Shown: in pieces, positions 913-15,858 of the stretch
Layout of the letters: every line of letters begins with the position of its first letter
How positions within the stretch are numbered: position 1 is the first letter of the stretch
Source of the DNA: Leptospiraceae bacterium
Lineage (GTDB): Bacteria > Spirochaetota > Leptospiria > Leptospirales > Leptonemataceae
Length of the DNA stretch: 64,000 nt
Reading direction: 5' to 3'
NCBI GenBank assembly: GCA_026005135.1
Contig: BPKM01000008.1
Coordinates: 20,250-84,249, forward strand
The notes under the pieces: generated by a model
Told to the model about the DNA's origin: nothing
The model's database searches: none
The model's input: only the letters and a program-made list of their open reading frames with translations
Position numbers and translations under genes: made by a program

Positions 913-3900
913 ATGATGGCTATGCAATCAGTTGAATCTTTAAAAGATATAAAGCAAATTAATCTTGATAATCATATTTTTATCGAAGCATCTGCTGGAA
1001 CAGGAAAAACCTATACAATTACAAGAATTTATTTAAAATATATTTTAGAAAAAAATATAGATCATAATAAAATTATATTATTAACGTTTACGAATAAGGC
1101 TACCATAGAAATGCTAAATCGTGTTAGAGAATTGATTATAGAAGGAATTGAAAAAAAACAATTAGACTTTATAAAAAATCAAAATCTAAATAATAAGCAA
1201 ATTGATACCTTGCAAAATATACTAAAACATTTTGATCAATTACGAATTTCTACTATACATAGTTTTTGTAAAAGTCTATTAAATGAATTTCCCTATGAAC
1301 TGAATTTACCTTCCAATACAGAAATTATTAATGATAACAAAGAAATTATAAAACAGATTATTATTGATAAATTTTTAAATCCAGATAAAAATCTTAATAA
1401 TATAAATTTAAATAAAATTCTTTTAGAAAAAAATATGGATAAAATAACTAATTACATAGAAAAGTTTATTCAGGAAAGTTCTCGAAGAGAAAATATTGTA
1501 ATCAATTTTATAGATGAACAAATCGAATTAAAAGATATTTTAAATCAAAATTATTCTAATATTAAAAGAGAAGAGTATCTTGAATTATTAAAATTATTTT
1601 ATGAAATTCATGAAAGAGTAAAACAATATAAAAAATTTCATGGTAAATTTACTTATGATGATTTAATTCTAAATTTATATTATGCATTAAAAAATAATAA
1701 ATCATTTAAAAAAAGAATGCAGGAACAATTTAAAATTTGTATTGTAGATGAATTTCAGGATACAGATCCTTATCAATGGGAAATATTTAAAATGATTTTT
1801 ATAGAAAACAATAATAACAATATTGTAGTTGTTGGAGATCCCAAACAGGCAATTTATGGTTTTCGTGGTGCAGATATTTATACTTATATCAATGCAAAAA
1901 AAGAATTAGAAGCATTAAATAATAAAGCTAAATTTTATAAACTTGATACCAATTATCGTTCCACAAAAACATTTATTGAACAAACAAATGAATATTTTAA
2001 AATATGTTTTAATAATAATTTAAATTATTTAGATAAAATAGAATTTTATGATATTTCTTCACCAGAAAATTATAATAACCAGAATGATGCAATTTATACA
2101 AAATATAAACCAGTAAATTTTATTCAATTAGAAAGCGAAGATGCTGATAGTGCAAGAAAAGAATTATCTGAACATATTGTAAGTATTATAAAAGATTTAA
2201 TACAAAATAAAGTAATGATTTATAATAAAGAAAAAATAGAACCAGTGAAATATTCTGATATTGCTATTCTTGTAAGAACAGGAGATGAAGCAAATTATAT
2301 AAAGAATTCTCTTAAGAAAAATAATATTCCTTTTATTGATTATTCAAAAGATAATATTTTTAATTCCTTAGAAGCTTCTGCAATAGAATTATTATTAGAA
2401 TATCTAGCAAATCCACAGGATGCAAAAATAAAAAAGCGATTTATTGTATATTATTTTATAGATATTCCCTATACAAATTTAGATAAAATCGAAGAGAATT
2501 ATTCCTATATACAATCAACAATTTCGGAATGGGTAAATTATTTAGATAAACGGAACTGGTATGAATTATTTTATAAGGTTATTGAAGATACTAAATTATA
2601 TTATAAATTTTTAGCATTACCAGATTACGAAAGAAAAATTACTAATTATGAACATTTAATCGAAATATTAGTAGAAATTGCTACAAAAAATCATTATGGA
2701 CCTTATGAACTTTACGAAGAATTTAAAAATTTAAAAGAAAGTCAAGAGGATATTGATGATTATAATATTCGCTTAGAATCCGAAGAAGATAAAGTTCATA
2801 TTCTAACTATGCATAAATCCAAAGGATTGGAATTTCCAGTAGTATTTTTATCTGGCTGGTTTAATTATAAAGCCCCTTCTGTAGGAGATAGGAATAATTA
2901 TAAATTTTATGATGATTATAATAATATCTGGAATATATGTTTTTTTTATGATAATAATAACGAATATGTTAAAAATTTTATCACAGAAGAAACTTTTTTC
3001 GAAGAATTTCGTTTATTCTATGTTGGCTTTACCAGAGCCCAGAGTTATTTATTTTTACCTAAATATGATATATCCAATATGAAAGATTTTTTATCAAATC
3101 TTGCAGATAAAGAAAAATTTAATATATTAGAAAAAGAATTTTTTGAACAGTTAAAAAAAGAAATCACTTATCCTGAAAAAATCAATTCATTAAATAATAT
3201 AGAAAATAATTCATCAAAAGAAAATGGAATTTCTATAAAAGAAAGAATCCAGAATCTAACACAATTAGAAAAAATTCCCTATCTCGAAAAACGATATATT
3301 TTAAATTCTTATTCTTCTCTAACTAAACAGGAATCTTCTACAATGGACGAAGTAGATTATGACGAAATAGAAGAAATCTCTACTTCCGAAGAATCATCAT
3401 CAAAAGAAAAAATTGAAAAAGCAAAAACCGATTTTGATAAGTATTTAAAACCTGGTGCTAAAACAGGTAATTTTATTCATAAAATATTCGAAAAAATAGA
3501 TTTTATGGATTTTAAAAAAGATATATATAATAAAGAATCTTTATTAAATAAATATAAAAATCTTTTTAATTATTATAATCAACAATATTCTATTTATTTA
3601 GAGAATAAAGAAAAATTAAATCAATTTCTTATCGAATTTCTTTTCGAAATATTAAATCATAAAATCAATAATGAATTTTCTTTATGCGAAATTAATCCAG
3701 AATTTACAAAAAAAGAAATTGGTTTTTTAATTCAGGATATATATAGTATTGATGAGTTTAGCCCTATCTTAAATAATAATTTTTTTACTGGAAATCTCGA
3801 TTTATTTTTCGAACATAATAATAAATATTATTTATTAGATTATAAAACCAGTTTATTAGAAAAATATGATTTTAATTCTTTAAAAGAACATACAGAAAAT

Positions 3901-3975
3901 TATTATAAAATCCAGTATTTATTATATAGTTATGCTTTATATTTATGGTTAAATCAAATTAAAGGCATTCTCTAA
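913..3975 (+). CDS. recB: RecB, exodeoxyribonuclease V beta subunit (UvrD-type helicase plus C-terminal PD-(D/E)xK nuclease). The frame breaks about 45 codons before the expected end.
   Basis: Motifs IFIEASAGTGKTYTI (Walker A), VDEFQDTD, VGDPKQAIYGFRGA, YRS, and nuclease-domain GNLDLFFEHNNKYYLLDYKTS. recD follows. Confidence 0.9.
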   Translation: MMAMQSVESLKDIKQINLDNHIFIEASAGTGKTYTITRIYLKYILEKNIDHNKIILLTFTNKATIEMLNRVRELIIEGIEKKQLDFIKNQNLNNKQIDTLQNILKHFDQLRISTIHSFCKSLLNEFPYELNLPSNTEIINDNKEIIKQIIIDKFLNPDKNLNNINLNKILLEKNMDKITNYIEKFIQESSRRENIVINFIDEQIELKDILNQNYSNIKREEYLELLKLFYEIHERVKQYKKFHGKFTYDDLILNLYYALKNNKSFKKRMQEQFKICIVDEFQDTDPYQWEIFKMIFIENNNNNIVVVGDPKQAIYGFRGADIYTYINAKKELEALNNKAKFYKLDTNYRSTKTFIEQTNEYFKICFNNNLNYLDKIEFYDISSPENYNNQNDAIYTKYKPVNFIQLESEDADSARKELSEHIVSIIKDLIQNKVMIYNKEKIEPVKYSDIAILVRTGDEANYIKNSLKKNNIPFIDYSKDNIFNSLEASAIELLLEYLANPQDAKIKKRFIVYYFIDIPYTNLDKIEENYSYIQSTISEWVNYLDKRNWYELFYKVIEDTKLYYKFLALPDYERKITNYEHLIEILVEIATKNHYGPYELYEEFKNLKESQEDIDDYNIRLESEEDKVHILTMHKSKGLEFPVVFLSGWFNYKAPSVGDRNNYKFYDDYNNIWNICFFYDNNNEYVKNFITEETFFEEFRLFYVGFTRAQSYLFLPKYDISNMKDFLSNLADKEKFNILEKEFFEQLKKEITYPEKINSLNNIENNSSKENGISIKERIQNLTQLEKIPYLEKRYILNSYSSLTKQESSTMDEVDYDEIEEISTSEESSSKEKIEKAKTDFDKYLKPGAKTGNFIHKIFEKIDFMDFKKDIYNKESLLNKYKNLFNYYNQQYSIYLENKEKLNQFLIEFLFEILNHKINNEFSLCEINPEFTKKEIGFLIQDIYSIDEFSPILNNNFFTGNLDLFFEHNNKYYLLDYKTSLLEKYDFNSLKEHTENYYKIQYLLYSYALYLWLNQIKGIL

Positions 3976-4103
3976 AAGAAAAACTTCCCGGTGGTATTAT
4001 TTATTATTATATAAGAGGATATAAAGAATCATCAAAGGGAATTTATTTTAAAGAATTTGATCTATTTGAAAATATACATAAAGAATTAAAATTAATATTA
4101 TAA
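3963..4103 (+). other. recB: Out-of-frame continuation that encodes the missing RecB C-terminus.
   Basis: Frame 3 reads SLKEKLPGGIIYYYIRGYKESSKGIYFKEFDLFENIHKELKLIL*. This matches the conserved GG(V/I)xYxFxRG end of RecB proteins (E. coli GGVIYLFLRG). Confidence 0.7.
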
Positions 4104-4124
4104 CGTTAAAATAGGAGAAATTTT

Positions 4125-6035
4125 ATGATAACAAAACTGGAAATATCAAACCTTATAAAAGAACCTTCTTATTACTATATTTATTTAATAAATGATATTG
4201 ATCAATATTTAAACATAGAATCTAAACTTAAAGAAGAAGAAATAAAAATCTGGAATTTGCTTATTTATTATCTATTATGGTCCATCGAAAAAGGCAACCT
4301 ATGCATTGATTTAAAAAATTCAAAACAACTGGAACAATTTACACAGGAAATATTAAAAGAAGAAAATGAAATTCAATGGGAAAAGACTTCTAAAATATTA
4401 AATAAAATAAAAAAACTATCTAATTTCGATAAAATTTTTTACCTCTATCCAGACTATCCAGAATCTGATAATACCTATGAATTTTTATATTTTAAAAAAC
4501 ATTACGAAGCTCAAAATCTATTAAAAGAAAAAATAAAAATAATTCAAACTATTCAAAACCAAATCGTAATTGATAAAAATACAAAAAATATAATTGAATC
4601 ATATCTTAAAAAAGTAAATAAATTAGACGAAACACAAAAATTAGCTATTATTTTAAGTATTTTACAAAAATTTTTAATTATTTCTGGCGGTCCGGGGACA
4701 GGTAAAACGACTATTGCATCTCATATTATTGGATTACATATAGAATTAGGAATGCCAGCATTTCGCATAGGAATTGCAGCACCAACAGGTAGAGCTGCTT
4801 CTCGATTATACGAAAGCTTAAAATCTAATTTAAATGGTATTATTGATTTAAATCACTTGAATTTAATTGAGCCAAAAACCCTACATCGATTATTGTATTT
4901 TAAACCCTATAAAAATGAATTTTATTATGGAGAAAATAATTATCTTCCTTACGATTTAATTCTTGTAGATGAATCTTCGATGATTGATATTCATTTAATA
5001 AAACAATTATTTTCTGCAATTTCTTTCGAAGAAACAAAATTAGTCTTATTAGGAGATCATAATCAATTGCCTTCTGTTCAGGAAGGAAATACCCTAGCAG
5101 ATTTAAAACCTACAAAAAAAGTCACTCTACCAGAAATAGAAAACTATTTAAAAGAATTTAAAATTAAACCTCCTGAAAATTTTAATCCTTATTTTATTGA
5201 ATTAACAAAATCTTATCGAAGCATTCAAATTATAAAAGAATTGGCTGATAAAATTAAAGAAAATGATATGGGATTAATAGATCAATTAAATCAAAATAAA
5301 GTAAGTTATTCTAAAGATATTTTTAACAAAGATAATCCTATTTTCTGGATAGAAGAAACAGATAAAGAAAAAATAAAAGCCATTATAAAAGATTATATCG
5401 AAATAAAAATCATTAAATCTTCTAATGATTTATTAAAAAAAATCACAAAACAAAGTAAAAAAGAATGGCGCTTAGATTTCCAGGAAACAAATCCTTTGCA
5501 TAAACTTTACGAAATTATTTCTAATCATAAAATTCTTACACCCTTAAAAGTTGGTCCCCTTGGTACAGAATCTATTCATCAGTATTTAATCCACTCTTTA
5601 TATAAAAACCTTAATATTGATCCTGTTAAGGAAGGAATGCCTATTATCATAACACAAAATGATTATTATAATGAGCTGTATAACGGAGATATAGGTATTA
5701 TTCTTAAAGATAATAAAAAAAATTATTATGCCTGTTTTAAAGGAAAAGATCAATATCTTCTTTATTCGTTTATGTCATTAAATTATTATGATTATTCTTA
5801 TGCTATTACAATACATAAAAGCCAGGGAAGTGAATATGAAGAAGTATTATTAATCTTACCAGAGATAGAAGAAAATCAAGCCCATTCTATAATCAATCTT
5901 TATAATAGACAGATTCTTTATACAGCAATTACAAGAGCAAAAAGAAAAATCTATCTTATTTCTTCCGAAGAAACATTGAAAAAAACAATCGAAAACAAAA
6001 TCGAACGTATCTCTGGAATTAAATTATGGGAGTAA
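4125..6035 (+). CDS. recD: RecD, exodeoxyribonuclease V alpha subunit (SF1B helicase).
   Basis: Motifs ISGGPGTGKTT (Walker A), LILVDESSMID, LLGDHNQLPSV, AITIHKSQGSEY. An RBS-like GGAG lies upstream and the gene sits directly after recB. Confidence 0.9.
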   Translation: MITKLEISNLIKEPSYYYIYLINDIDQYLNIESKLKEEEIKIWNLLIYYLLWSIEKGNLCIDLKNSKQLEQFTQEILKEENEIQWEKTSKILNKIKKLSNFDKIFYLYPDYPESDNTYEFLYFKKHYEAQNLLKEKIKIIQTIQNQIVIDKNTKNIIESYLKKVNKLDETQKLAIILSILQKFLIISGGPGTGKTTIASHIIGLHIELGMPAFRIGIAAPTGRAASRLYESLKSNLNGIIDLNHLNLIEPKTLHRLLYFKPYKNEFYYGENNYLPYDLILVDESSMIDIHLIKQLFSAISFEETKLVLLGDHNQLPSVQEGNTLADLKPTKKVTLPEIENYLKEFKIKPPENFNPYFIELTKSYRSIQIIKELADKIKENDMGLIDQLNQNKVSYSKDIFNKDNPIFWIEETDKEKIKAIIKDYIEIKIIKSSNDLLKKITKQSKKEWRLDFQETNPLHKLYEIISNHKILTPLKVGPLGTESIHQYLIHSLYKNLNIDPVKEGMPIIITQNDYYNELYNGDIGIILKDNKKNYYACFKGKDQYLLYSFMSLNYYDYSYAITIHKSQGSEYEEVLLILPEIEENQAHSIINLYNRQILYTAITRAKRKIYLISSEETLKKTIENKIERISGIKLWE

Positions 6036-6039
6036 AGAA

Positions 6040-6067
6040 TTGACAACTTTAGTAATATCGATAAAAT
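6040..6067 (+). promoter_or_regulatory. Sigma70-like promoter candidate for the methyltransferase/defence operon.
   Basis: Perfect TTGACA (6040-6045), a 16-nt spacer, then TAAAAT (6062-6067). It begins 5 nt after the recD stop and about 50 nt upstream of the ATG at 6118. Confidence 0.4.
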
Positions 6068-6117
6068 TTTCATCAAAATTTCCAAAGTATAAATATTTTA
6101 TAAAAAAGGATTATAAT

Positions 6118-8598
6118 ATGACGAAAGAACAAAAATTTTATAATGCATTACGAGATATTTTTATCGGTGCTAAAATAGAAGGTAAAGGTGGTTTTGTAAA
6201 TTTAATGATGATTAAATCAAAATATTACGAAAAAATAGAAGAATTACTTAAAAACGATATCGAAAATGCATTAAAAAAATATCCTTCGTTTCGAGAAGAA
6301 CTTTTTGATAAACTATATTCATTTTTTAGCAGGTATTTTTCGGAAAGTGGTGCAATTTATTTTAATTCTACTCCTTTCCATAATAATGTTTATGAAAAGG
6401 TTTATACCAATGAAAAAGATGTAGTTTTATTCTGGAAAACACAGATGCTCTATTATGTTAAAACAGATAGAATTTTTAGAAGCTTAGAAATAGAATTAGA
6501 TGAATATAAGTTTTATTTTGATGTATCTAATCTGGAACATAAAAAAGCTAACGAAAAAAGAAGTTTAATATATGAACTTAAAGAAATAAATCAGAATGGC
6601 ACAATTATATTTAATGTAATATACTCCGAACGTGGTAGAATTACCAGAACAGATGATATAATAAAAACATTAAAGAAAAATAATATTACAATTACAGAAG
6701 AACAGTTGGAACGTGCATTTCGTACATTCGAAAAACAAAGCGAAGTAGATTTTTTTATTAATAAAAATGCAAAAGCCTTTTTGCAGGAACAATTTAAATT
6801 ATGGAGTTTTCAATACTTCTGGGAAGGAGCAAAAGAATGGAGCCCCGATAGAGTAAATGAATTACAAATATTAAAAGATATTGCTTTTAAAATCATTGAT
6901 TTTATTTCGCAATTCGAAGATGAACTTGTAAAAATCTGGAACAAACCAAAATTCGTAAAAAATAGTAATTATGTGATTACCTTAGATAGAATCAATACTA
7001 TTGAATTAATTGAAAAAATACTTACGCATAAAAAAATACAAGCTCAAATTAACGAATGGAAAGAATTAGGAATTATAGAAGAAAATTTTACAACCGATAA
7101 TGTTTTAGAAAATGATTTAACAGGTAAACGTTTATCTGAAAAATATAAACACTTACCAATAGATACAAAATATTTTAAAGATTTAGAATTAGAAATTTTA
7201 CGATTATTTGATGATTTAGATCAATCCTTAGACGGCTGGCTTATAAAAAGCGAAAACTATCAGGCATTAAATACCATCTTACCGAAATTCAAAGAAAAAG
7301 TGCAGACAATTTATATTGATCCACCGTTTAATTTGGACAGCAGTGACCAATTTTTATACCGCACAAATTACAAAGATGCCAACTGGGCAACATTGCTTGA
7401 AAACCGCTTGCGCATTGCTAAAAATTGGCTGAATGAAAGAGGAAGCATTTTTGTCCGTTGTGATTACAATGGAAATTGGATTGTGAGATGTTTAATGGAT
7501 GAGATTTTTGGAAGGGAGAATTTTAAAAATGAATTAATAATTAGTAGAATAAGTAAACAAGATCCAAAAGTTCAAAAATTCAATACTGCAACAGACTCAT
7601 TATTTTTTTATTCTAATACTGATGCTTTTCAATTCAATCTTTTGTTCAAGCAATTAGCAAAAGCAAAAGCCGAAAGATGGCATGCGATGGATTCGCAAGG
7701 ACAAGGACAAGCACTTTACATTTTTGATTATTTATTTCACCCACCAAGAGGACGACACTGGACATATGGACAAGAGAATATAAAACAAATGGAAAATCAA
7801 AGAAGAATAAGGTTAAAATGTAGAAAATGCGGGTATATTCACATTTCGGGTTCTTGGAAGGGATGCCCAAAGTGTAAAAATAAGGAAGATGTTAAAGTTG
7901 AATATCTGTTAGCTCCAACAGAAATAAAACAGATCGATTCAAATTGGACGGATATTTCTGGTTATACTTCTAATTGGTATTTTAAAACTGAAAATTCTGA
8001 AATCTTACTTAAAAGAGCGATTGAAACATCCTCAAATAAAACCGACATAGTTCTCGATTTCTTCCTCGGCTCAGGTACAACCACAGCAGTAGCCCATAAA
8101 CTTGGCAGGAAATGGATTGGTATTGAAATGGAAGAGCATTTTTACAGCGTGGTCTTACCAAGAATGAAGAAGGTTTTATTTTACGATAAATCAGGCATAT
8201 CTAAGGAAAACGATGTAAAAGAACATTATAATGAAAAAAATGCTGGTGGTTTTTTTAAATACTATGAATTAGAACAATACGAAGAAACACTTGCAAACAC
8301 AGTTTACGAAAATCACGATTTATTTCTTATTGGCAATAAATCCCCTTACGAACAATATGTATTTCTAAAAGACGAAAAGATGCTTAAAGCACTGGAAATA
8401 GATTACGAAAACAATAAAGTAAAAGTGGATTTATCAAAACTTTATGAAAATATAGATATTGCAGAAACACTATCTAATTTAACAGGAAAATGGATAAAGA
8501 AAATAAAAGATGGCGAAGTAGAGTTTGAAGATGGCACAAAAGTTAATACAAAAGATTTGGATTATAAATTAATAAAACCGTTAATATGGTGGGAGTAG
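6118..8598 (+). CDS. Type III Mod-like beta-class N6-adenine/N4-cytosine DNA methyltransferase with a ~400-aa N-terminal extension and a zinc ribbon in the variable region.
   Basis: Motif IV context ENYQALNTILPKFKEKVQTIYIDPPFN. Downstream FGRENF. Motif I is VLDFFLGSGTTTAVAHKLGRKWIGIE. CxxC...CxxC lies at 7819-7875. I prefer ATG 6118 (AAGGA RBS, 7-nt spacer) over TTG 6040, which coincides with the -35 box. Confidence 0.85.
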   Translation: MTKEQKFYNALRDIFIGAKIEGKGGFVNLMMIKSKYYEKIEELLKNDIENALKKYPSFREELFDKLYSFFSRYFSESGAIYFNSTPFHNNVYEKVYTNEKDVVLFWKTQMLYYVKTDRIFRSLEIELDEYKFYFDVSNLEHKKANEKRSLIYELKEINQNGTIIFNVIYSERGRITRTDDIIKTLKKNNITITEEQLERAFRTFEKQSEVDFFINKNAKAFLQEQFKLWSFQYFWEGAKEWSPDRVNELQILKDIAFKIIDFISQFEDELVKIWNKPKFVKNSNYVITLDRINTIELIEKILTHKKIQAQINEWKELGIIEENFTTDNVLENDLTGKRLSEKYKHLPIDTKYFKDLELEILRLFDDLDQSLDGWLIKSENYQALNTILPKFKEKVQTIYIDPPFNLDSSDQFLYRTNYKDANWATLLENRLRIAKNWLNERGSIFVRCDYNGNWIVRCLMDEIFGRENFKNELIISRISKQDPKVQKFNTATDSLFFYSNTDAFQFNLLFKQLAKAKAERWHAMDSQGQGQALYIFDYLFHPPRGRHWTYGQENIKQMENQRRIRLKCRKCGYIHISGSWKGCPKCKNKEDVKVEYLLAPTEIKQIDSNWTDISGYTSNWYFKTENSEILLKRAIETSSNKTDIVLDFFLGSGTTTAVAHKLGRKWIGIEMEEHFYSVVLPRMKKVLFYDKSGISKENDVKEHYNEKNAGGFFKYYELEQYEETLANTVYENHDLFLIGNKSPYEQYVFLKDEKMLKALEIDYENNKVKVDLSKLYENIDIAETLSNLTGKWIKKIKDGEVEFEDGTKVNTKDLDYKLIKPLIWWE

Positions 8599-8604
8599 TT
8601 AGCT

Positions 8605-10284
8605 ATGCCAAAACCATTATTTGATACGAAAACATTAAATTTTTCTGAACTCTTAGGAAATTCAAAAATTTATAAGGTGCCAAGATTTCAAAGAAGTTAT
8701 TCCTGGGATGAATCGAACTGGGAAGAACTATGGCTTGATATTTTAGCATTAAAAAATAAAGAAGAATCTATACATTATCTTGGGACGATTGTACTACAAA
8801 CAGAGGATAATAAAACATTTACCATAATCGATGGTCAACAAAGAATGGTTACATTAAGTATTATTATACTTGGATGTTTAACATTACTTGATAATTTAGT
8901 CCAGAATGGAATTGAACCTGAAAAAAACAAAGAGAGAAAAGAGATATATATAAACCAATATATTGGTTTTAAAGATCCAAAAGCCTTAACATATCAATCG
9001 AAACTTACTTTAAATGATACAGATAAAGATTTATATAATTCTTATCTCGTTCAATTAAAAAATCCTCTTAATATTTCAAAACTTCCCGATTCAAATAAGC
9101 TATTAATTAAAGCTTATAAATACTTTATAGAAAAGCTAAAAAGTATAGGATTACAAGAAAGTGGTGAATCTATTGTAGATTTTATTGAATCAATATTATC
9201 CAATAAACTTATTTTTATACAAATTATTGTTGATGATACTTTATCAGCTTATACTGTATTTGAAACATTAAATGCAAGAGGAGTTGAATTAACAACAACT
9301 GATTTAATAAAAAATTATTTATTCTCATTATTAGATAATGAAATAGATATAAACAATTTACAGCCAATATGGAATAGAATAGTTAATATGGTTAAATATA
9401 GAAAGTTTCCTGTATTTCTTAGATATTTTATTAATTCTCAACAGCAAATTGTTAGAGCAGAAAGATTATTTAAAGAAGTTAAGAATAGAATTGCTAGTAA
9501 AGAAAATGTATTTCATCTTATAGATGAATTAGAACAATATGCAGATGTTTATATTGCTTTAGACGATCCAGATAATGAGTTATGGTATAATAACAATAAT
9601 ATTAAACAAATAATAAATGAATTAATTCTTTTTCAGGTTCAGCAACATAAGTCATTACTTCTTTCTGTTTATTTTAAGATGAATCAATATTTTGAAGATG
9701 TTTTAAGGATTATAAGGGCATTGACTTTTCGATATAATGTAATTGGTAAACGAAATCCCAATGAATTAGAAAGAGTATATAATCGTATAGCAATAAAGAT
9801 ATATAATGGAAAAATTTCAACCCCACAAGACATTCAGCAAGAATTAAAAGATATATATATTGATGACGAAATATTTAAAAATACTTTTAGCACTCAAATA
9901 TTTGATACTAGCAAAACTAAAGAAAAAAAACTGGTTCGTTATATTTTATTATCAATAGAAAATAAAAAATTTAATAAAGATTATCATCTTTTTGATACTA
10001 ATGCAACCATTGAACATATCTTTCCAGAAAATTATTTAAACATAGAAGAGAAAATAGATGAATCCATTATTTATAGATTAGGAAATTTAACACTGATTGA
10101 AGCAAGCTTAAATAGAGAATGTGCAAATAAACCATTTAAAGAGAAAAGAGAGATATATAAAAAGTCTCAATATGAAATTACAAAAGAAGTTTCGCAAAAT
10201 ACAGAATGGGGAGCAAATGAAATTAGAAGCAGACAATTACAATTAGCGACAATTGCAACCTCTATATGGAGATTACCATATTAA
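8605..10284 (+). CDS. GmrSD-like DUF262/DUF1524 protein (ParB-like NTPase N-domain plus His-Me finger-like nuclease C-domain).
   Basis: FQRSYSW and IIDGQQR (8830-8844) match DUF262. C-terminal IEHIFPE ... GNLTLIEASLNRECANKPF matches DUF1524. GGGAG RBS; 6-nt gap after the methyltransferase stop. Confidence 0.8.
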   Translation: MPKPLFDTKTLNFSELLGNSKIYKVPRFQRSYSWDESNWEELWLDILALKNKEESIHYLGTIVLQTEDNKTFTIIDGQQRMVTLSIIILGCLTLLDNLVQNGIEPEKNKERKEIYINQYIGFKDPKALTYQSKLTLNDTDKDLYNSYLVQLKNPLNISKLPDSNKLLIKAYKYFIEKLKSIGLQESGESIVDFIESILSNKLIFIQIIVDDTLSAYTVFETLNARGVELTTTDLIKNYLFSLLDNEIDINNLQPIWNRIVNMVKYRKFPVFLRYFINSQQQIVRAERLFKEVKNRIASKENVFHLIDELEQYADVYIALDDPDNELWYNNNNIKQIINELILFQVQQHKSLLLSVYFKMNQYFEDVLRIIRALTFRYNVIGKRNPNELERVYNRIAIKIYNGKISTPQDIQQELKDIYIDDEIFKNTFSTQIFDTSKTKEKKLVRYILLSIENKKFNKDYHLFDTNATIEHIFPENYLNIEEKIDESIIYRLGNLTLIEASLNRECANKPFKEKREIYKKSQYEITKEVSQNTEWGANEIRSRQLQLATIATSIWRLPY

Positions 10285-10309
10285 AACTTATATATAGGTT
10301 AGGAGTAAA

Positions 10310-10447
10310 ATGAAAATAGAAAATATAAATATTATTATATTAAAGGAATTAGACAATAAGATACCCATACCTAATGTTTGTAAAGAATTTGATTTAAAAA
10401 TATGTGATTTATATCAAATGTTAAGAGATTTAAATTTTAGATTTTAA
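10310..10447 (+). CDS. 45-codon ORF, possible mini-HTH/controller-like peptide. Not in the supplied ORF track.
   Basis: ATG at 10310 with AGGAG (10301-10305) upstream. Translation: MKIENINIIILKELDNKIPIPNVCKEFDLKICDLYQMLRDLNFRF*. The stop is 6 nt before the res ATG. Confidence 0.3.
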   Translation: MKIENINIIILKELDNKIPIPNVCKEFDLKICDLYQMLRDLNFRF

Positions 10448-10453
10448 TAGGAG

Positions 10454-13414
10454 ATGTCAGATATGAACAAGCTTTACCTACAAAATATTGTTGAAAGTGT
10501 TCAATGGAATGATTTACCCGCGGATTGGACTGATTTTAATTTATTTCGCTTTTCGAAAGAAAAAATGCTTTTTGATTATCAACAGAAAGCATTAAAAAAT
10601 GCGCTTATAGCCTTGTATAAATATTATGTGGAATTAAAGGGAAACAAAAAACAATTTCTTGATCTTTATAAAAATAATGGACTGGATGTAAATCAAAATA
10701 ATTTAGATATAAATTTAAAAAATAATCATAAAATCCAGACAATATATAAAGAATTTGATAAGGATTATACCATAGTAGAAAACGAAATAATTTCTTTTGA
10801 ACATTTTATCAATCGAATGAGTTTCTGGATGGCTACTGGAAGTGGAAAAACACTGATAATTGTTAAATTGATCGAATTACTTGCCAATCTAGTTCAAAAT
10901 AAACATATTCCGAATAAAAATATTTTGTTTTTAACTTACCGCGAAGATTTAATTGAACAATTTAAACTACATATAGAAGAATATAATGCCTCTAATCCAT
11001 CTATTACTATTAATCTAATAAATTTAAAAGAATACGAAGCACGAAAAAAGAATTCTGCATTAACCTTTTATAAAAGTATTGATGTCTTTTATTACAGAAG
11101 TGATTTAATTTCTGATGAACAAAAAGATAAAATCATTGACTTTAAAAATTATGACGATAATGGCAACTGGTATATTATACTTGATGAAGCCCATAAAGGA
11201 GATAAAGAAGAAAGTAAAAGACAACACTATTATTCTATCCTTTCACGAAATGGATTTTTATTTAATTTTTCTGCCACTTTTACAGATAAGATTGATTTTG
11301 TAACCTGTGTTTATAACTTTAATCTTGAACAATTTATCAAAAATGGCTATGGAAAACAAATTTATATTTCTCAAAGCGATATATCCGAATTAGCAAATAA
11401 GCAAGATTATAACGAAAAAGAAAAACAAATCATTATTATTAAATTACTACTTCTTTATACATATATCAATCAACAAAAATTAAATATAGATTCTATGTTT
11501 TATCATAAACCATTGCTTCTTACTCTTGTTAATTCTGTAAATACAGAAGATTCGGATTTATATTTATTTTTTAAAGAATTAGAAAGTATTGCAACAGGTA
11601 ATGGCAATATAGATGCTTTGTTACAAGCAAAAGAAGCATTAAAAAAGGATTTAACTCATAACTGCGAATTTACAGAAGAAAAAATCAACATAGATAATAA
11701 AAAAATTGATGATCTTGGCTTTGAAGATATTTTAAAAAATGTTTTTCATTCTACCACTTATGGAAAAATAGAAGTACTTAAAATTCCGGGAAATAAACAG
11801 GAAATCCTATTTAAACTAACAACAAGCGATAAACCTTTCGGACTTATTAAAATTGGAGATATATCAGAATGGATAAAAAATAAGCTATCAAATTACGAAA
11901 TTATTGAACGTTTCGAAAATGAAAGTCTTTTTAAAACGATCAATCAAGATGATTCCGATATTAACATTTTAATGGGATCTCGATCCTTTTACGAAGGATG
12001 GGATAGTAATCGTCCCAATATCTTATTATATATCAATATTGGAAAGGGAGCAGATGCTAAAAAATTTGTCTTACAATCCATAGGTCGAGGTATAAGAATA
12101 GAACCATTACCAAATAAACGAAAACGTATCCATTTTTTATTCAACAACAACGAAATATCCATAGAAAAATTCAAAGAAATAAAAGATATAGTAAAACCAC
12201 TTGAAACATTATTTGTCTATGGTACAAAAGCAGAAAATTTAAAAGAAGTAATGGAAACTCTTCAACAGGAAAAACAGGAAGAACCACTTGGCAATCTATT
12301 TGAAATCAATCCAGAAATTAATGACAAATTACTTTTAATTCCCGTTTATAAAAAATCTCCAAAAATCCTTGTAGAAGAAAAAAATATTATAAAATTTCCC
12401 ATACATCCTGAAGATTATAAATTAATAAAAAATTATTTTAATTATTTAAGCGAAAAAATATGCATAGTTAAATATGATTGTAGTGCAAAAATATTAGAAA
12501 ATACCAAAAAAGGATTTAATGGAAAAGAAAATGACTATTTTCAACTAAAAGAAGAAGAACCAGAAATAAAAAATCCGGATTTTTTATTAAAAAGAATTTT
12601 TCAACACTATAATAATAAAACAGAAGAATTTGATTCATTTAAAAAACTGGAAAAAGAAATTATACATTTTGAAAGGATAAGTATTTCGAAAGATAAATTA
12701 AATTCTTTACGAGAAAAAATCGAAAATGTAAAAAAATTAAAAGATAAAAATAAAATAAAAAGGGAACTTCAAGAAAAACTTAAAAAAAACGAAATTAATT
12801 TAGATGTTTATACACAAGAAATTGAAAATATTTCCGAAATAAAAGAAGAAGAAAAAATTTATAGTCCAAATGAAAAATTAAAAATTAAGTATTTAGCAAA
12901 TCATTATTATTTTCCTGTTATATTAGCACAATCCCAACAAATCAATTTTATCAAGCATATAATAAAGCATAAAAGCGAAATAGATTTTCTAAATAGCTTA
13001 GAAAACTATCTAATAGAAAAAGATAATTTCTTTAAACAATTTGATTGGTGGTATTTTTCTAAAATCGACGAAATACTGGATAATATTTATATACCTTATT
13101 ATAATCCCACAACAAACAGAATAGATAAATTTAAGCCCGATTTTATTTTCTGGTTAAAAAAAGATAACAATTATATAATATTATTTATTGATCCCAAAGG
13201 CACAGAGTATTCAGATGCATATAGGAAAATTGATGGATATTCGAGAATATTCGAAATAGAAGAAAATGGCAATAAAAAAGCAAAAATTCTAAATTATAAT
13301 GAATACAATATAAAAGTACTATTATTATTAAGAACTAATAACATAGCAAATGTTCCAAAAAATTATATAAACTACTGGTTTTCTAATATAAATGAAATTA
13401 AAAATTTTTTATAA
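10454..13414 (+). CDS. Type III Res-like SF2 (DEAH) helicase with C-terminal PD-(D/E)xK endonuclease motif.
   Basis: FDYQQKAL, MATGSGKTLI, ILDEAHKG, SATF, QSIGRGIRI, and a C-terminal KPDFIFW...LFIDPKGTEY. The second ATG at 10463 has better spacing from the GGAG at 10450-10453. Confidence 0.8.
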   Translation: MSDMNKLYLQNIVESVQWNDLPADWTDFNLFRFSKEKMLFDYQQKALKNALIALYKYYVELKGNKKQFLDLYKNNGLDVNQNNLDINLKNNHKIQTIYKEFDKDYTIVENEIISFEHFINRMSFWMATGSGKTLIIVKLIELLANLVQNKHIPNKNILFLTYREDLIEQFKLHIEEYNASNPSITINLINLKEYEARKKNSALTFYKSIDVFYYRSDLISDEQKDKIIDFKNYDDNGNWYIILDEAHKGDKEESKRQHYYSILSRNGFLFNFSATFTDKIDFVTCVYNFNLEQFIKNGYGKQIYISQSDISELANKQDYNEKEKQIIIIKLLLLYTYINQQKLNIDSMFYHKPLLLTLVNSVNTEDSDLYLFFKELESIATGNGNIDALLQAKEALKKDLTHNCEFTEEKINIDNKKIDDLGFEDILKNVFHSTTYGKIEVLKIPGNKQEILFKLTTSDKPFGLIKIGDISEWIKNKLSNYEIIERFENESLFKTINQDDSDINILMGSRSFYEGWDSNRPNILLYINIGKGADAKKFVLQSIGRGIRIEPLPNKRKRIHFLFNNNEISIEKFKEIKDIVKPLETLFVYGTKAENLKEVMETLQQEKQEEPLGNLFEINPEINDKLLLIPVYKKSPKILVEEKNIIKFPIHPEDYKLIKNYFNYLSEKICIVKYDCSAKILENTKKGFNGKENDYFQLKEEEPEIKNPDFLLKRIFQHYNNKTEEFDSFKKLEKEIIHFERISISKDKLNSLREKIENVKKLKDKNKIKRELQEKLKKNEINLDVYTQEIENISEIKEEEKIYSPNEKLKIKYLANHYYFPVILAQSQQINFIKHIIKHKSEIDFLNSLENYLIEKDNFFKQFDWWYFSKIDEILDNIYIPYYNPTTNRIDKFKPDFIFWLKKDNNYIILFIDPKGTEYSDAYRKIDGYSRIFEIEENGNKKAKILNYNEYNIKVLLLLRTNNIANVPKNYINYWFSNINEIKNFL

Positions 13415-13416
13415 CC

Positions 13417-13953
13417 CTACCAAATTTTATTAAAATCAAATTCTATTTTACATTCTTCTATGTTAAATATATATAAATTATTACTTATTGTCTCTTTTTT
13501 ATATTTTTTCCCTTTATGTTTATATATCTCTATGGATTTCTTTTTAGGTTCTACTATAACATAATATAATACCTTCTGCTCTTCGTATAGTTTATATTTG
13601 ATTTCTCTATCTTTCTTCTCTGTTGATTCTGATATTACTTCAAATATTATACTCGGTGCTTTTGTTATATAAGGCTTATCTTCTAAAGGATAACAGATTA
13701 CTAAATTATCTGGCTGGACTATTGTATATTCATCTATTTTCCAATCTACTGGTAGTAAGGCTATACATCTTTCGCATTGTTCTAAATATTTTTGTAATTC
13801 ATAATGAATGCTGCCAGAAATTTTTTGATGATAGGGATTAGGAGCAGGAGACATAGCATAAGGAATTCCTTCGATTAATTCCCAACGACCTTCCCATTGT
13901 AAATAATCATTATAACTATAACGAGGTATATCCTTTTTCTTTAATAAAGGCAT
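13417..13953 (-). CDS. Uma2-family (DUF820, PD-(D/E)xK-like) putative endonuclease, copy A.
   Basis: The 178-aa product has the typical Uma2 N-terminus (YLQWEGRWELIEGIPYAMSPAPNPYHQKI) and core (VQPDNLVI...PSIIFEVISEST). Convergent with res; the stops are 2 nt apart. Confidence 0.7.
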   Translation of the reverse strand: MPLLKKKDIPRYSYNDYLQWEGRWELIEGIPYAMSPAPNPYHQKISGSIHYELQKYLEQCERCIALLPVDWKIDEYTIVQPDNLVICYPLEDKPYITKAPSIIFEVISESTEKKDREIKYKLYEEQKVLYYVIVEPKKKSIEIYKHKGKKYKKETISNNLYIFNIEECKIEFDFNKIW

Positions 13954-14018
13954 ATTTTTATAATATATCTTTTTTATAATTAGTCAAACTAATTTTTTGT
14001 ATATATGAACTTATAAAT

Positions 14019-14555
14019 CTACCAAATTTTATTAAAATCAAATTCTATTTTACATTCTTCTATGTTAAATATATATAAATTATTACTTATTGTCTCTTTT
14101 TTATATTTTCTACCATTATGTTTATATATCTCTATGGATTTCTTTTTAGGATCTACTATAACATAATATAATACCTTCTGTTCTTCGTATAGTTTATATT
14201 TGATTTCTCTATCTTTCTTCTCTGTTGATTCTGATATTACTTCAAATATTATACTCGGTGCTTTTGTTATATAAGGCTTATCTTCTAAAGGATAACAGAT
14301 TACTAAATTATCTGGCTGGACTATTGTATATTCATCTATTTTCCAATCTACTGGTAATAAGGCTATACATTTTTCACATCGTTCAAGTGCTATATTTAAA
14401 ATCGTATTAATTTTACTACTAATTTTTTGATGATAGGGATTAGGAGCAGGAGACATAGCATAAGGAATTCCTTCGATTAATTCCCAACGACCTTCCCATT
14501 GTAAATAATCATTATAATTATAACGAGGTATATCTTTTTTCTTTAATAAAGGCAT
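14019..14555 (-). CDS. Uma2-family (DUF820) putative endonuclease, copy B.
   Basis: Same length as copy A. It is near-identical except for residues 47-62 and four scattered substitutions. Confidence 0.7.
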   Translation of the reverse strand: MPLLKKKDIPRYNYNDYLQWEGRWELIEGIPYAMSPAPNPYHQKISSKINTILNIALERCEKCIALLPVDWKIDEYTIVQPDNLVICYPLEDKPYITKAPSIIFEVISESTEKKDREIKYKLYEEQKVLYYVIVDPKKKSIEIYKHNGRKYKKETISNNLYIFNIEECKIEFDFNKIW

Positions 14556-14598
14556 ATTTTTATATTATATTTTTTTTATAATTAGTCAAGTTGATTTT

Positions 14599-15858
14599 TT
14601 ATATCAATATTTCTTTATAGATTAAGTCTTCGTAAGTTTCTCTTTTCCGAATTAGTTTTATTTTTTTATTTCTATCTATCAATACTTCTGCCGGGCGAGG
14701 TCTACTATTATATTGAGAAGACATTACAAATCCATATGCCCCTGTTGTTAATATTGCAAAATAATCATTTTCTTTTAATTGAGGTAATTGCCGATCTCTT
14801 GCAAAGAAATCTCCAGTCTCGCATACAGGACCTACAATATCAACATTTCGATTAAAATCTGTACTTTCAATTAAAGGTAAAATTTCATGATATGCCTGAT
14901 ACAAAGAAGGACGAATTAAATCATTCATCGCACCATCAACAATATAAAAAAGTTTATGATAATTTTCTTTTATATATAGAATTTTAGTAAGAAATATACC
15001 TGCAGGTCCTATAATACTTCTTCCTGGCTCTAATAAAATAGTAGTATCTTTTAGTTCATTCCATGGTAAAATAGAAATTATGGATCGTACAAATTCTTCT
15101 GGTTCTGGTGGGTTTTCGTTTTTATATCGAATTCCAAGTCCTCCACCGATATCTAAAAATTTTAATGTTTTATATTTTTTAAATGTTTCTATAAAAAATT
15201 TTGATTTTTCTGCTGCTTCCAGTTTTGAAGAAATATCAACAATTTGAGAACCTATATGATAACCAAATCCTAACAGTTCAACATTTTTTAAGTCTAATGC
15301 TAATTTTACCACATTTTCAAATAAATTAGAAGATATGCCAAATTTATTCTCTTTTAAACCCGTAGAAATATAAGGATGCGTTTTAGGATCTATATCTGGA
15401 TTTACACGTATGCTAACTGGTGCTATTTTTTGTAAGGAATGAGCTATTTCATTAATTTTTTTTAATTCACTTATGGATTCTACACTAAATAACATAATAT
15501 CTTCTTTTAATGCATATTCAATCTCTTCTTCTGTCTTACCCACACCAGAAAATACAATTTTATTTGCTGGCATATTGGCTTTAATACATCGAAAAAGTTC
15601 TCCACCACTTACAATATCTGCACCCAATCCTTCTTTTAACATAATTTTTATAATTGATAAATTAGAATTTGCTTTAACAGAATAACATAATTGTACTGGA
15701 TAATTTTGTATACCCCTCTTATAAGATTCAATTCTTTTTAAGATTATATCTTCGGAATAAACATATAATGGAGTTTTATAATTATTTACAACTTCATTTA
15801 AAGGTACATCAGAAAAATGTAATATTCCTTTGATATACTGAATACCCGGAAATTCCAT
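14599..15858 (-). CDS. lysA: Diaminopimelate decarboxylase.
   Basis: PLP-dependent Orn/DAP/Arg decarboxylase motifs: YSVKANSN, GGGLGI, CETGDFF, GAYGFVMSSQYNSRPRPAEV. Confidence 0.85.
   Translation of the reverse strand: MEFPGIQYIKGILHFSDVPLNEVVNNYKTPLYVYSEDIILKRIESYKRGIQNYPVQLCYSVKANSNLSIIKIMLKEGLGADIVSGGELFRCIKANMPANKIVFSGVGKTEEEIEYALKEDIMLFSVESISELKKINEIAHSLQKIAPVSIRVNPDIDPKTHPYISTGLKENKFGISSNLFENVVKLALDLKNVELLGFGYHIGSQIVDISSKLEAAEKSKFFIETFKKYKTLKFLDIGGGLGIRYKNENPPEPEEFVRSIISILPWNELKDTTILLEPGRSIIGPAGIFLTKILYIKENYHKLFYIVDGAMNDLIRPSLYQAYHEILPLIESTDFNRNVDIVGPVCETGDFFARDRQLPQLKENDYFAILTTGAYGFVMSSQYNSRPRPAEVLIDRNKKIKLIRKRETYEDLIYKEILI

What the first reader, a model, noticed from the sequence alone, without database searches (positions are those of the whole stretch)
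6040..13414. Type III-like Mod/Res pair interrupted by a GmrSD-like DUF262/DUF1524 gene and a 45-codon ORF: candidate hybrid or new restriction cassette
Seen: four co-directional ORFs lie behind one TTGACA-N16-TAAAAT site, separated by gaps of 6, 25 and 6-15 nt. (i) A beta-class methyltransferase (IYIDPPFN ... FFLGSGTT). (ii) A 559-aa protein with DUF262 hallmarks (FQRSYSW, IIDGQQR) and a DUF1524/His-Me-like end (IEHIFPE, GNLTLIE, LNR). (iii) A 45-aa ORF with an AGGAG RBS. (iv) A 986-aa SF2 helicase (ATGSGKT, LDEAH, QSIGRGIR) ending in KPDFIF...IDPKG. Established: Type III R-M needs only Mod and Res, and these are normally adjacent. DUF262/DUF1524 proteins (GmrSD, BrxU, SspE) are modification-dependent or NTP-driven nucleases, usually stand-alone or island-associated. 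Accessory genes nested inside Type I loci are known (PrrC, the Campylobacter rlo ORFs). Inference: the nested, tightly spaced layout implies co-transcription. One operon could then target both unmodified DNA (Mod/Res) and hypermodified phage DNA (GmrSD-like). Alternatively, the DUF262 protein could be a true third subunit of a methylase-helicase-nuclease system. I cannot establish from sequence alone whether this layout is already catalogued.
Basis: partly seen in the sequence, partly recalled or inferred. Interest (0 to 1): 0.75.

Follow-up and report, generated by a model that had tools for sequence, protein, structure and literature searches.

The report
Anti-phage nuclease nested inside restriction operon
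A stand-alone anti-phage nuclease gene (GmrSD-like, HEC-06 family) sits between the methylase and helicase-nuclease genes of a Type III-like restriction system; this is one more case of the already described habit of defence genes nesting inside other defence systems, and the 45-codon ORF is a deletion scar.

Summary
The pair Mod (6118-8598) and Res (10463-13414) belongs to a very widespread, horizontally mobile Type III-like family. In 38 of 69 informative species-representative loci the two genes abut. In 31 of 69 they are separated by 0.7-5.6 kb of co-directional cargo, such as RhuM-Fic, M78+DUF4411, Schlafen-like, MNT/HEPN, Hachiman-like and pAgo+SIR2 genes. None of the 80 loci carries a DUF262 gene. 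The window's DUF262/DUF1524 protein matches the PADLOC HEC-06 model over its full length (E 1.5e-201). Payne et al. 2024 showed a HEC-06 representative defends E. coli on its own. Homologues 62-78% identical occur intact without Mod or Res and remain under purifying selection (dN/dS 0.05-0.17). The gene is therefore autonomous cargo, not a third subunit. The closest locus (87% identical) reads Mod-DUF262-M78-DUF4411-Res. The window's 45-codon ORF is the M78 start fused in frame to the last 31 codons of DUF4411, a 1.47-kb deletion scar. Verdict: a new member of a known kind (an embedded defence gene). Embedding in Type III-like systems had not been surveyed. Interest is modest.

The parts
6040..6067 (+). 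Promoter-like site TTGACA-N16-TAAAAT. It lies 5 nt after the stop of the upstream RecD-like gene and 50 nt before the Mod ATG.
   Evidence: best match in the region (11/12), but the number of such sites is not above shuffles. Function is inferred, not shown.
6118..8598 (+). mod: an 826-aa beta-class N6A/N4C DNA methyltransferase. It has a conserved N-terminal region (aa 1-400), motif IV DPPF (nt 7318-7329), a variable target-recognition region (aa ~441-640, nt 7438-8037, with a CxxC...CxxC zinc ribbon) and motif I FLGSGTT (nt 8062-8082).
   Evidence: Pfam N6_N4_Mtase. PADLOC MTase_III PDLC03638 matches full length with E=0. The best PDB sequence hits are Type III Mods 6k0w, 7dsu and 4zcf_A. 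Conservation profile over 37 homologues.
8588..8595 (+). Shine-Dalgarno GGTGGGAG formed by the last Mod codons (W-W-E). It serves whichever gene follows mod. In loci without cargo that gene is res, 3-10 nt downstream.
   Evidence: junction sequences of 12 adjacent loci.
8605..10284 (+). Embedded cargo gene: a 559-aa GmrSD-like nuclease of the PADLOC HEC-06 family. The N-terminal DUF262/ParB-like NTPase carries DGQQR (nt 8830-8844). The C-terminal DUF1524 His-Me/HNH domain carries EHIFP (nt 10012-10026).
   Evidence: Pfam GmrSD_N + GmrSD_C. PADLOC HEC-06 PDLC04154 E 1.5e-201 over the full length. The closest solved structure is DndI 9jfl, E 2e-24. Motif positions.
10310..10447 (+). 45-codon ORF, a deletion scar. 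The first ~17 codons (with RBS AGGAG) come from a Peptidase_M78/ImmA-like gene. They are fused in frame to the last 31 codons of a DUF4411 (PIN-like) gene.
   Evidence: Pfam DUF4411 positions 121-159/159. Window 8053-10365 matches L089 2131-4443 and window 10355-13284 matches L089 5911-8825, so 1.47 kb is missing. Peptide comparison.
10463..13414 (+). res: an SF2 helicase-like ATPase (ATGSGKT nt 10832-10852, DEAH nt 11183-11194, QSIGRGIR nt 12074-12097) with a C-terminal PD-(D/E)xK-like motif (KPDFIF nt 13133-13150, IDPKG nt 13187-13201). The ORF also opens at ATG 10454.
   Evidence: Pfam ResIII/SWI2_SNF2/DEAD. Partial PADLOC REase_III hit, 1.1e-25. Motif residues are invariant in 16 homologues. 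Foldseek top hit is EcoP15I Res 4zcf_C, E 2.3e-6, on a moderate model.

Best explanation
The locus is a Type III-like restriction-modification operon (mod, then res) carrying an independent single-gene defence as embedded cargo. The cargo is a GmrSD-like NTP-dependent nuclease of the HEC-06 family, and it sits exactly where res normally follows mod. Mod methylates host DNA. Res (SF2 ATPase plus PD-(D/E)xK) attacks unmethylated invader DNA. The DUF262/DUF1524 protein acts on its own through its DGQQR NTPase and His-Me nuclease, probably against DNA that escapes or is unsuitable for Mod/Res, such as modified phage DNA. All three genes are probably read from one transcript starting upstream of mod. 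The cargo uses the ribosome-binding site embedded in the last mod codons. The arrangement arose by cassette gain and loss between the conserved mod 3' end and res 5' end. The immediate ancestor was Mod-DUF262-M78-DUF4411-Res, and a 1.47-kb microhomology deletion removed the M78/DUF4411 pair and left the 45-codon fusion ORF. Shown: gene content, homologies, synteny statistics, the deletion and purifying selection. Inferred: co-transcription, enzymatic activities, target preference and the benefit of the combination.
For: 1. The DUF262 protein matches the HEC-06 model full length at E 1.5e-201, and the Mod matches MTase_III full length at E=0.
2. A HEC-06 representative protects E. coli dRM by itself, and DGQQR and EH mutants lose protection (paper 10.1101/2024.01.29.577857). 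Both motifs are intact here.
3. In the survey of 80 species-representative Res loci, Mod is always directly upstream on the same strand. Of 69 informative loci, 38 are adjacent and 31 carry 0.7-5.6 kb of cargo. None has a DUF262 homologue.
4. The cargo is diverse known or candidate defence genes, all co-directional: PDC-S23/S05 RhuM-Fic, PDC-S13 Bro-N, DUF6119, Ppl-like ATPase, SLFN_AlbA_2, M78+DUF4411, MNT+HEPN, PDC-M23 Hachiman-like and pAgo_II+Aga_SIR2.
5. Close DUF262 homologues are found embedded (L003, L089, L103, L099, L100) and intact alone among housekeeping genes (L001, L006, L092, L093, L105).
6. dN/dS is 0.05-0.17 for every computable pair, including the solo-solo pair L092/L093 with unsaturated dS of 0.67.
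7. The deletion scar is documented.
8. The SD lies in the mod 3' end and the junction is conserved.
9. The gaps are 6, 25 and 15 nt and contain no terminator-like hairpin.
Against: There are no expression or activity data for this MAG locus. The promoter match is not statistically distinguishable from background in this AT-rich DNA. The HEC-06 target, modified or unmodified DNA, is not stated in the text I read. This DUF262 clade is historically tied to this Mod family: even 'solo' copies in L001 and L092 keep a 170-200-nt scar of the mod 3' end. Some functional link in the embedded state therefore cannot be excluded. Res is assigned to Type III mainly from motifs, Pfam ResIII and a weak fold match. 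PDB sequence searches found nothing.
Confidence: 0.75

Rival explanations
1. The DUF262/DUF1524 protein is a functional partner of Mod, a second restriction arm that reads the Mod methyl mark as 'self'. This is how DndI uses the phosphorothioate mark written by DndBCDE. Mod would then protect the host from two nucleases, Res and DUF262.
For: The closest solved structure is DndI (9jfl, E 2e-24 over the full length). DndI nicks unmodified DNA and is released from self DNA by the mark. The protein also hits the PADLOC 'Orf5' model at 4.9e-182. Most close homologues are, or once were, next to this Mod's 3' end.
Against: Intact homologues without any adjacent Mod are under purifying selection. HEC-06 works alone in an R-M-free E. 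coli. In the Mod-Res survey, 38 of 69 informative loci have no cargo and none of the 80 has a DUF262 gene. The match to HEC-06 is far stronger than the match to DndI.
Confidence: 0.08
2. The DUF262 protein is a PrrC-like guard. It would be held inactive by the Mod/Res complex and unleashed only when a phage anti-restriction protein disables Mod/Res.
For: There is precedent for embedded backup effectors: PrrC in EcoprrI, discussed. The tight operon layout fits, with the cargo taking the translationally coupled slot after mod.
Against: Solo homologues are maintained by selection, and HEC-06 is constitutively protective alone. The same slot holds many unrelated cargos, which argues against a specific protein-protein interface.
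Confidence: 0.07
3. The locus is a decaying leftover. The insertion and later deletion have uncoupled res from mod, and one or more genes are no longer expressed or functional.
For: The locus carries a deletion scar. Related loci show decay: L097 has fragmented Mod, L099/L100 have Res fragments, L101/L102 have a frameshifted DUF262, and L104 lacks an intact Mod.
Against: All three window genes are full length with every catalytic motif intact. Res has its own AGGAG at proper spacing to ATG 10463. A 99%-identical Res exists in another sample (P0121).
Confidence: 0.1

Closest known systems
Embedded defence systems ('guilt-by-embedding'; Payne, Hughes, Fineran, Jackson, bioRxiv 10.1101/2024.01.29.577857), in particular HEC-06
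   Same: A defence gene is nested, co-oriented, between the genes of a multi-gene methylase/helicase defence system. The nested gene is a DUF262+DUF1524 GmrSD-like protein that matches the HEC-06 model full length. It is also found outside the host system, and the host system is found without it.
   Different: The host here is a two-gene Type III-like Mod/Res pair, not Hma, BREX, DISARM or Type I R-M, which are the only hosts surveyed in that paper. No Hma-type ATPase is present.
BREX + BrxU (pEFER island; Picton et al. 2021, PMC8565348)
   Same: A GmrSD-like nuclease is embedded in a methylation-based defence operon. The proposed logic is complementary targeting of unmodified and modified DNA.
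   Different: By the paper's own comparison, HEC-06 shares only ~24% identity over 11% alignment coverage with BrxU. The host system differs, and specificity for modified DNA is untested here.
Type I R-M loci with nested accessory genes (PrrC; Campylobacter RloF = DUF262; V. cholerae TgvAB)
   Same: A DUF262-family or other effector gene lies between the modification and restriction genes of an ATP-dependent R-M system.
   Different: This is Type III-like (no HsdS; the beta-class Mod carries its own TRD). There is no evidence of PrrC-like regulatory dependence.
Classical Type III R-M (EcoP15I/EcoP1I)
   Same: The gene order is mod then res. Mod is beta-class with a variable central TRD. Res has an N-terminal SF2 ATPase and a C-terminal PD-(D/E)xK motif. 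EcoP15I Mod and Res are among the best solved-structure matches.
   Different: Mod has an extra conserved ~370-aa N-terminal region. Res has no detectable sequence similarity to any PDB chain and only a partial PADLOC REase_III match. In the window, mod and res are not adjacent.
DndI (IscS-DndBCDE-DndI; PMC11662687)
   Same: It has the same DUF262 + HNH architecture and the DGQQR motif, and it is the closest solved structure.
   Different: DndI depends on the neighbouring modification system for self-protection. Homologues of the window protein live without a neighbouring Mod.

Membership tests
Type III restriction-modification (EcoP15I type) | Mod is a beta-class N6A/N4C methyltransferase: motif IV (DPPY/F) precedes motif I (FxGxG), with a variable TRD between them. 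| tested here: met
   DPPF is at aa401 and FLGSGTT at aa649. Pfam N6_N4_Mtase. PADLOC MTase_III matches full length at E=0. Across 37 homologues, aa 441-640 is variable (0.21-0.55) and the flanks are conserved.
Type III restriction-modification (EcoP15I type) | Res has an N-terminal SF2 helicase-like ATPase. | tested here: met
   Pfam ResIII 9.3e-17. Motifs I, II and VI are invariant in 16 homologues. Foldseek top hit is EcoP15I Res 4zcf_C, E 2.3e-6, though TM-scores are low and generic SF2 helicases score nearly as well.
Type III restriction-modification (EcoP15I type) | Res carries a C-terminal PD-(D/E)xK endonuclease domain. | tested here: inconclusive
   The motif P895-D896...D913-P-K915 is invariant, and the model shows a beta-rich C-terminus. 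No profile or structure match specific to this domain was obtained.
Type III restriction-modification (EcoP15I type) | mod lies immediately upstream of res in one operon. | tested here: not met
   The family meets it: 38 of 69 loci are adjacent, with res ATG 3-10 nt after the mod stop. In the window the genes are 1.86 kb apart, although order and strand are kept.
Type III restriction-modification (EcoP15I type) | ATP-dependent cleavage needs two inversely oriented unmethylated sites, and methylation is on one strand only. | not testable with these tools
   This needs biochemistry and a methylome.
GmrSD-like nucleases, PADLOC HEC-06 family | N-terminal DUF262 (ParB-like NTPase) with a DGQQR motif. 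| tested here: met
   Pfam GmrSD_N 1.2e-36. DGQQR is at aa76-80.
GmrSD-like nucleases, PADLOC HEC-06 family | C-terminal DUF1524 His-Me/HNH nuclease with an E/D-H motif. | tested here: met
   Pfam GmrSD_C 4.2e-26. EHIFP is at aa470, against EHICP with E471/H472 in the tested HEC-06.
GmrSD-like nucleases, PADLOC HEC-06 family | Full-length match to the family model. | tested here: met
   PDLC04154 E 1.5e-201, residues 5-557 against profile positions 6-566 of 569.
GmrSD-like nucleases, PADLOC HEC-06 family | Anti-phage activity as a single gene. | not testable with these tools
   It was shown for one representative in the paper. Here it is supported only indirectly, by solo homologues under purifying selection.
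Embedded defence system (sensu Payne et al. 2024) | The gene lies between genes of a known multi-gene defence system, in the same orientation. | tested here: met
Embedded defence system (sensu Payne et al. 2024) | The embedded gene also occurs outside the host system, and the host system occurs without it. | tested here: met
   Solo homologues: L001, L006, L092, L093 and L105. None of 80 Mod-Res loci has a DUF262 gene, and 38 of 69 have no cargo.
Three-subunit or DndI-like modification-coupled DUF262 system | Obligate genomic linkage of the DUF262 gene with the modification gene. | tested here: not met
   Intact solo copies at 62-78% identity have dN/dS 0.05-0.16.
Hma (helicase-methylase-ATPase) | HmaA, HmaB and HmaC proteins are present. 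| tested here: not met
   The only PADLOC hit of Res is REase_III. All 25 listed hits of Mod (of 50 families matched) are R-M-type or orphan methyltransferases, none Hma. No ATPase gene is in the cassette.
DUF4411 (PIN-like) / Peptidase_M78 pair | A complete PIN-like domain and a partner M78 gene. | tested here: not met
   Only profile positions 121-159 of 159 are present. The ORF is M78 aa1-17 fused to DUF4411 aa136-166.

The most novel reading that the evidence does not exclude
In the embedded state the DUF262/DUF1524 nuclease could use the methyl mark written by the neighbouring Mod as its self signal, as DndI uses phosphorothioate. One methyltransferase would then license two mechanistically different nucleases. 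A second, less radical reading is that the conserved mod 3' end (an SD plus about 30-115 nt of homology, repeated at cassette junctions in L003, L013, L015 and L029) works as a dedicated capture and expression site. That would make this Mod/Res family an integrase-free cassette platform.
Probability: 0.08. Interest if true: 0.7.

Novelty: new member of a known kind. Interest (0 to 1): 0.3.

Why it matters
For this locus alone it matters little: it adds one more example of a validated single-gene defence (HEC-06 type) riding inside a methylation-based system. The survey made to test it has some wider use. One very widespread Type III-like Mod/Res family, found across bacteria, CPR and archaea, carries embedded cargo in about 45% of species-representative loci. 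That cargo includes pAgo+SIR2, a Hachiman-like pair and several PADLOC candidate families. Copies of the mod 3' end mark the cassette junctions. Type III-like systems could therefore be mined by 'guilt-by-embedding' just like Hma, BREX, DISARM and Type I. Annotation pipelines that require adjacent mod and res will miss such systems.

Tried and rejected
- PDB sequence searches with Res, as a single sequence and as a 16-sequence profile, gave nothing or only coiled-coil noise.
- The AlphaFold model of Res was only moderate (pLDDT 69.6, pTM 0.46). Its Foldseek matches separate EcoP15I Res only marginally from generic SF2 helicases, so I treat this as weak support.
- NCBIfam gave no family for Res, DUF262 or the small ORF.
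- The metagenome scan with the DUF262 protein returned only 9 loci, several of them duplicates of contigs already fetched, so the embedded/solo ratio for the clade is a small-sample estimate.
- I looked for copies of the mod 3' end inside the window's own cargo and found none.
- There are no tRNA genes in the window and no flanking repeats suggesting an integrative element around the cassette.
- I rejected the small ORF as a regulator, antitoxin or C-protein because it is a chimera of two gene ends.
- I rejected Hma membership.
- I could not establish what system the PADLOC model name 'Orf5' belongs to.
Full report
**Observation.** The window (100% match to a Leptospiraceae MAG, KatS3mg129) carries four co-directional ORFs on the + strand.
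- Mod: the ORF opens at TTG 6040, and homologues align from ATG 6118, giving 826 aa.
- A DUF262/DUF1524 gene at 8605-10284 (559 aa).
- A 45-codon ORF at 10310-10447.
- Res at 10454-13414 (986 aa). AGGAG at 10449-10453 abuts ATG 10454, and homologues begin MKLYLQ, so ATG 10463 is the likely start.

Gaps are 6, 25 and 6 or 15 nt. TTGACA-N16-TAAAAT at 6040-6067 is the best promoter-like match locally. Such matches are not enriched over shuffles in this AT-rich DNA, and no terminator-like hairpin lies in the gaps. Co-transcription is therefore plausible but inferred.

**What the genes are.**
- Mod hits Pfam N6_N4_Mtase and the PADLOC MTase_III model PDLC03638 over its full length at E=0. Its best solved relatives are Type III Mods 6k0w, 7dsu and EcoP15I 4zcf_A.
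- In an alignment of 37 Mods from related loci, aa 1-400 and 641-826 are conserved. The stretch aa 441-640, between DPPF (401) and FLGSGTT (649), is variable. This is the Type III pattern of a central target-recognition region.
- Res has Pfam ResIII/SWI2_SNF2/DEAD, invariant motifs I, II and VI, and an invariant PD...DPK motif near the C-terminus.
- Res has only a partial PADLOC REase_III hit and no sequence match in the PDB. A moderate AlphaFold model (pLDDT 69.6) has EcoP15I Res as its top Foldseek hit, but generic SF2 helicases follow closely. 'Type III-like' is the fair description.
- The DUF262/DUF1524 protein hits Pfam GmrSD_N + GmrSD_C and the PADLOC HEC-06 model PDLC04154 at E 1.5e-201 over the full length. 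Its closest solved structure is DndI (9jfl, E 2e-24).

**Comparative test of the 'subunit' idea from the Mod/Res side.** The Res family is very large and about 45-65% identical across bacteria, CPR and archaea.
- In 80 species-representative loci, a Mod homologue lies directly upstream on the same strand wherever the contig allows it to be seen.
- Of 69 informative loci, 38 have mod and res abutting. The res ATG lies 3-10 nt after ...LIKPLIWW(E)*, whose codons form the SD GGTGG(GAG).
- The other 31 (45%) have 0.7-5.6 kb between the two genes.
- All assigned inserted genes are co-directional and diverse:
  - RhuM-Fic (PADLOC PDC-S23/S05), 9 loci;
  - Peptidase_M78 + DUF4411, 6 loci;
  - SLFN_AlbA_2/HATPase_c_4, 5 loci;
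  - Bro-N (PDC-S13), 5 loci;
  - MNT + HEPN, 3 loci;
  - DUF6119, 3 loci;
  - a Ppl-like PHP/ABC ATPase;
  - a Hachiman-like pair (PDC-M23A/B);
  - pAgo class II + Aga_SIR2;
  - a radical-SAM protein (PDC-M30/M41-like), a Fic protein and a protease-like protein.
- None of the 80 loci contains a DUF262 homologue.

Mod/Res therefore does not need the DUF262 protein, and the mod-res junction is a general cargo slot.

**The same test from the DUF262 side.**
- Close homologues (61-87% identity) are embedded in this Mod/Res family in several contigs:
  - L089/L090 (87%): Mod-DUF262-M78-DUF4411-Res;
  - L003/L005 (79%): Mod-DUF262-ATPase-SLFN-M78-DUF4411-Res;
  - L103 (61%): Mod-DUF262-Res with no other gene between;
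  - L099 and L100.
- Equally close homologues are intact and alone among housekeeping genes: L001/L002 (Thermodesulfobium, 78%), L092 and L093/L094 (74%), L006-L008 (Ignavibacteria, 62%) and L105 (Gracilinema, 51%).
- L091 has the gene behind an ATPase-SLFN pair with no Res.
- dN/dS is 0.05-0.17 for every computable pair. This includes the solo-solo pair L092/L093, where dS is unsaturated (0.67) and the ratio is 0.064. The gene therefore stays under selection without Mod or Res.
- Some solo copies keep a 170-200-nt scar of the mod 3' end upstream (L001, L092) and fragments of RhuM-Fic downstream (L092, L093). This shows that they left a Mod-linked array.

**The 45-codon ORF.** Window 8053-10365 aligns with L089 2131-4443. 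That stretch runs through the DUF262 stop into the first ~55 nt of the M78 gene. Window 10355-13284 aligns with L089 5911-8825, which is the last ~90 nt of DUF4411 plus Res.
- At the peptide level the ORF is MKIENINIIILKELDNK (compare M78 MKVEYINVNILQELSNK) joined to IPIPNVCKEF...FRF* (compare DUF4411 ...NKIPIPNVCKDF...FKF*).
- The join falls at a short AATAA(A/G)AT microhomology.
- The Pfam hit to DUF4411 positions 121-159 of 159 is explained by this.

The ORF is a scar of a 1.47-kb deletion. It lacks the PIN domain and is not a component of the system.

**Literature.** Payne, Hughes, Fineran and Jackson (bioRxiv 10.1101/2024.01.29.577857) describe 'embedded' defence genes in Hma, BREX, DISARM and Type I R-M.
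- They report that 96.7% of embedded genes are co-oriented with the host system.
- They note that GmrSD-like genes are frequent cargo.
- They show that a HEC-06 representative alone protects E. coli dRM, with the DGQQR and EH residues required.
- They did not survey Type III hosts.

Machnicka et al. 2015 (PMC4619093) had already found GmrSD neighbourhoods enriched in Type I R-M and ResIII domains, and recalled RloF, a DUF262 protein found within Campylobacter Type I R-M loci. I found no paper describing embedding in Type III-like systems in the searchable library.

**Mechanism.** The best reading (confidence 0.75) is two autonomous defences sharing one operon. The first is Mod/Res, which restricts unmethylated DNA. 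The second is a HEC-06-type NTP-dependent His-Me nuclease occupying the translationally coupled slot after mod. Complementary targeting, as in BREX plus BrxU, is the plausible benefit but is untested. Rivals are a DndI-like reading of the Mod mark (0.08), a PrrC-like guard (0.07) and a decaying locus (0.10). The evidence for and against each is listed in the rival section.

**Cassette turnover.** In multi-cassette loci, copies of the last 24-114 nt of mod sit precisely at cassette junctions:
- L003 at 5873-5905, 9738-9851 and 11458-11507;
- L013 at 7086-7135 and 8338-8361;
- L015 at 6734-6764;
- L029 at 1448-1471.

Single-cassette loci lack such copies, and so does the window's own cargo. This fits stacking of cassettes by recombination through the mod 3' end, which also supplies the SD. 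This mechanism is an inference.

**Verdict.** The 'hybrid, new restriction cassette' reading is not supported. The 'two systems in one operon' reading is supported, and it is an instance of a described phenomenon with a described cargo family, in a host class not yet surveyed. Novelty: new member of a known kind. Interest: 0.3.

Noticed in passing
window 13409-14604 (minus-strand genes 13417-13953 and 14019-14555): Two tandem Uma2-family (PF05685) genes lie directly downstream of res, convergent with it. They form a 602-bp tandem duplication that is 92-98% identical at the DNA level and 165/179 at the protein level. Both match PADLOC candidate PDC-S03, so the cassette sits in a small defence cluster.
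   Followed up: partly
L003 5873-5905, 9738-9851, 11458-11507; L013 7086-7135, 8338-8361; L015 6734-6764; L029 1448-1471: Copies of the last 24-114 nt of mod (...DYKLIKPLIWWE*, including its SD) recur exactly at the junctions between successive embedded cassettes. Single-cassette loci show none. This suggests cassette stacking by recombination through the mod 3' end.
   Followed up: partly
L001 8831-9000; L092 8806-9000 and 10728-10967; L093 10817-11143: 'Stand-alone' DUF262 genes keep a 170-200-nt scar of the mod 3' end upstream, fragments of a RhuM-Fic gene downstream, or both. In L001 an intact RhuM-Fic gene follows. These copies descend from Mod-linked arrays from which only the DUF262 gene was retained.
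   Followed up: partly
L043 6955-9916; L011 715-4699: A class II pAgo (Piwi) plus Aga_SIR2 pair lies between mod and res of the same family in an Aminicenantes MAG. A Hachiman-like PDC-M23A/B pair (a 269-aa protein plus a 1062-aa helicase) does the same in a Bacteroidetes/Chlorobi MAG.
   Followed up: partly
window 7332-8053 compared with L089: The central part of mod (the TRD) does not align at the DNA level with the otherwise closest locus L089, while the flanks align at 76-86%. The same region aligns throughout with L003. This points to TRD (specificity) exchange within the family.
   Followed up: partly
L099 2269-2550 and 2867-5203; L100 3676-3840; L097 3-2364; L101/L102; L104 4288-13999: Several related loci are decayed or rearranged. 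L099 has a Res 5' fragment followed by a second full Mod. L097 has a fragmented Mod. L101/L102 have a frameshifted DUF262 gene. A Leptonema contig (L104) has DUF262-M78-DUF4411-Res but no intact Mod, plus a second ResIII/RE_endonuc gene.
   Followed up: no
window 913-6035: A UvrD/AddA-like helicase-nuclease ORF (1020 aa) and a RecD-like ORF (636 aa) lie immediately upstream. This identification is from my reading of the translations only; no domain search was run. The RecD-like stop is 5 nt before the -35 box of the mod promoter-like site, so read-through into mod is possible.
   Followed up: no
window 6500-9000: G+C rises to 0.28-0.32 over mod, against 0.19-0.25 in the flanks. This is consistent with horizontal acquisition of the cassette.
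   Followed up: no
window 8605-10284: The DUF262 protein also hits PADLOC models named 'Orf5' nearly as strongly as HEC-06 (PDLC02687, 4.9e-182). I could not establish which system 'Orf5' belongs to.
   Followed up: partly
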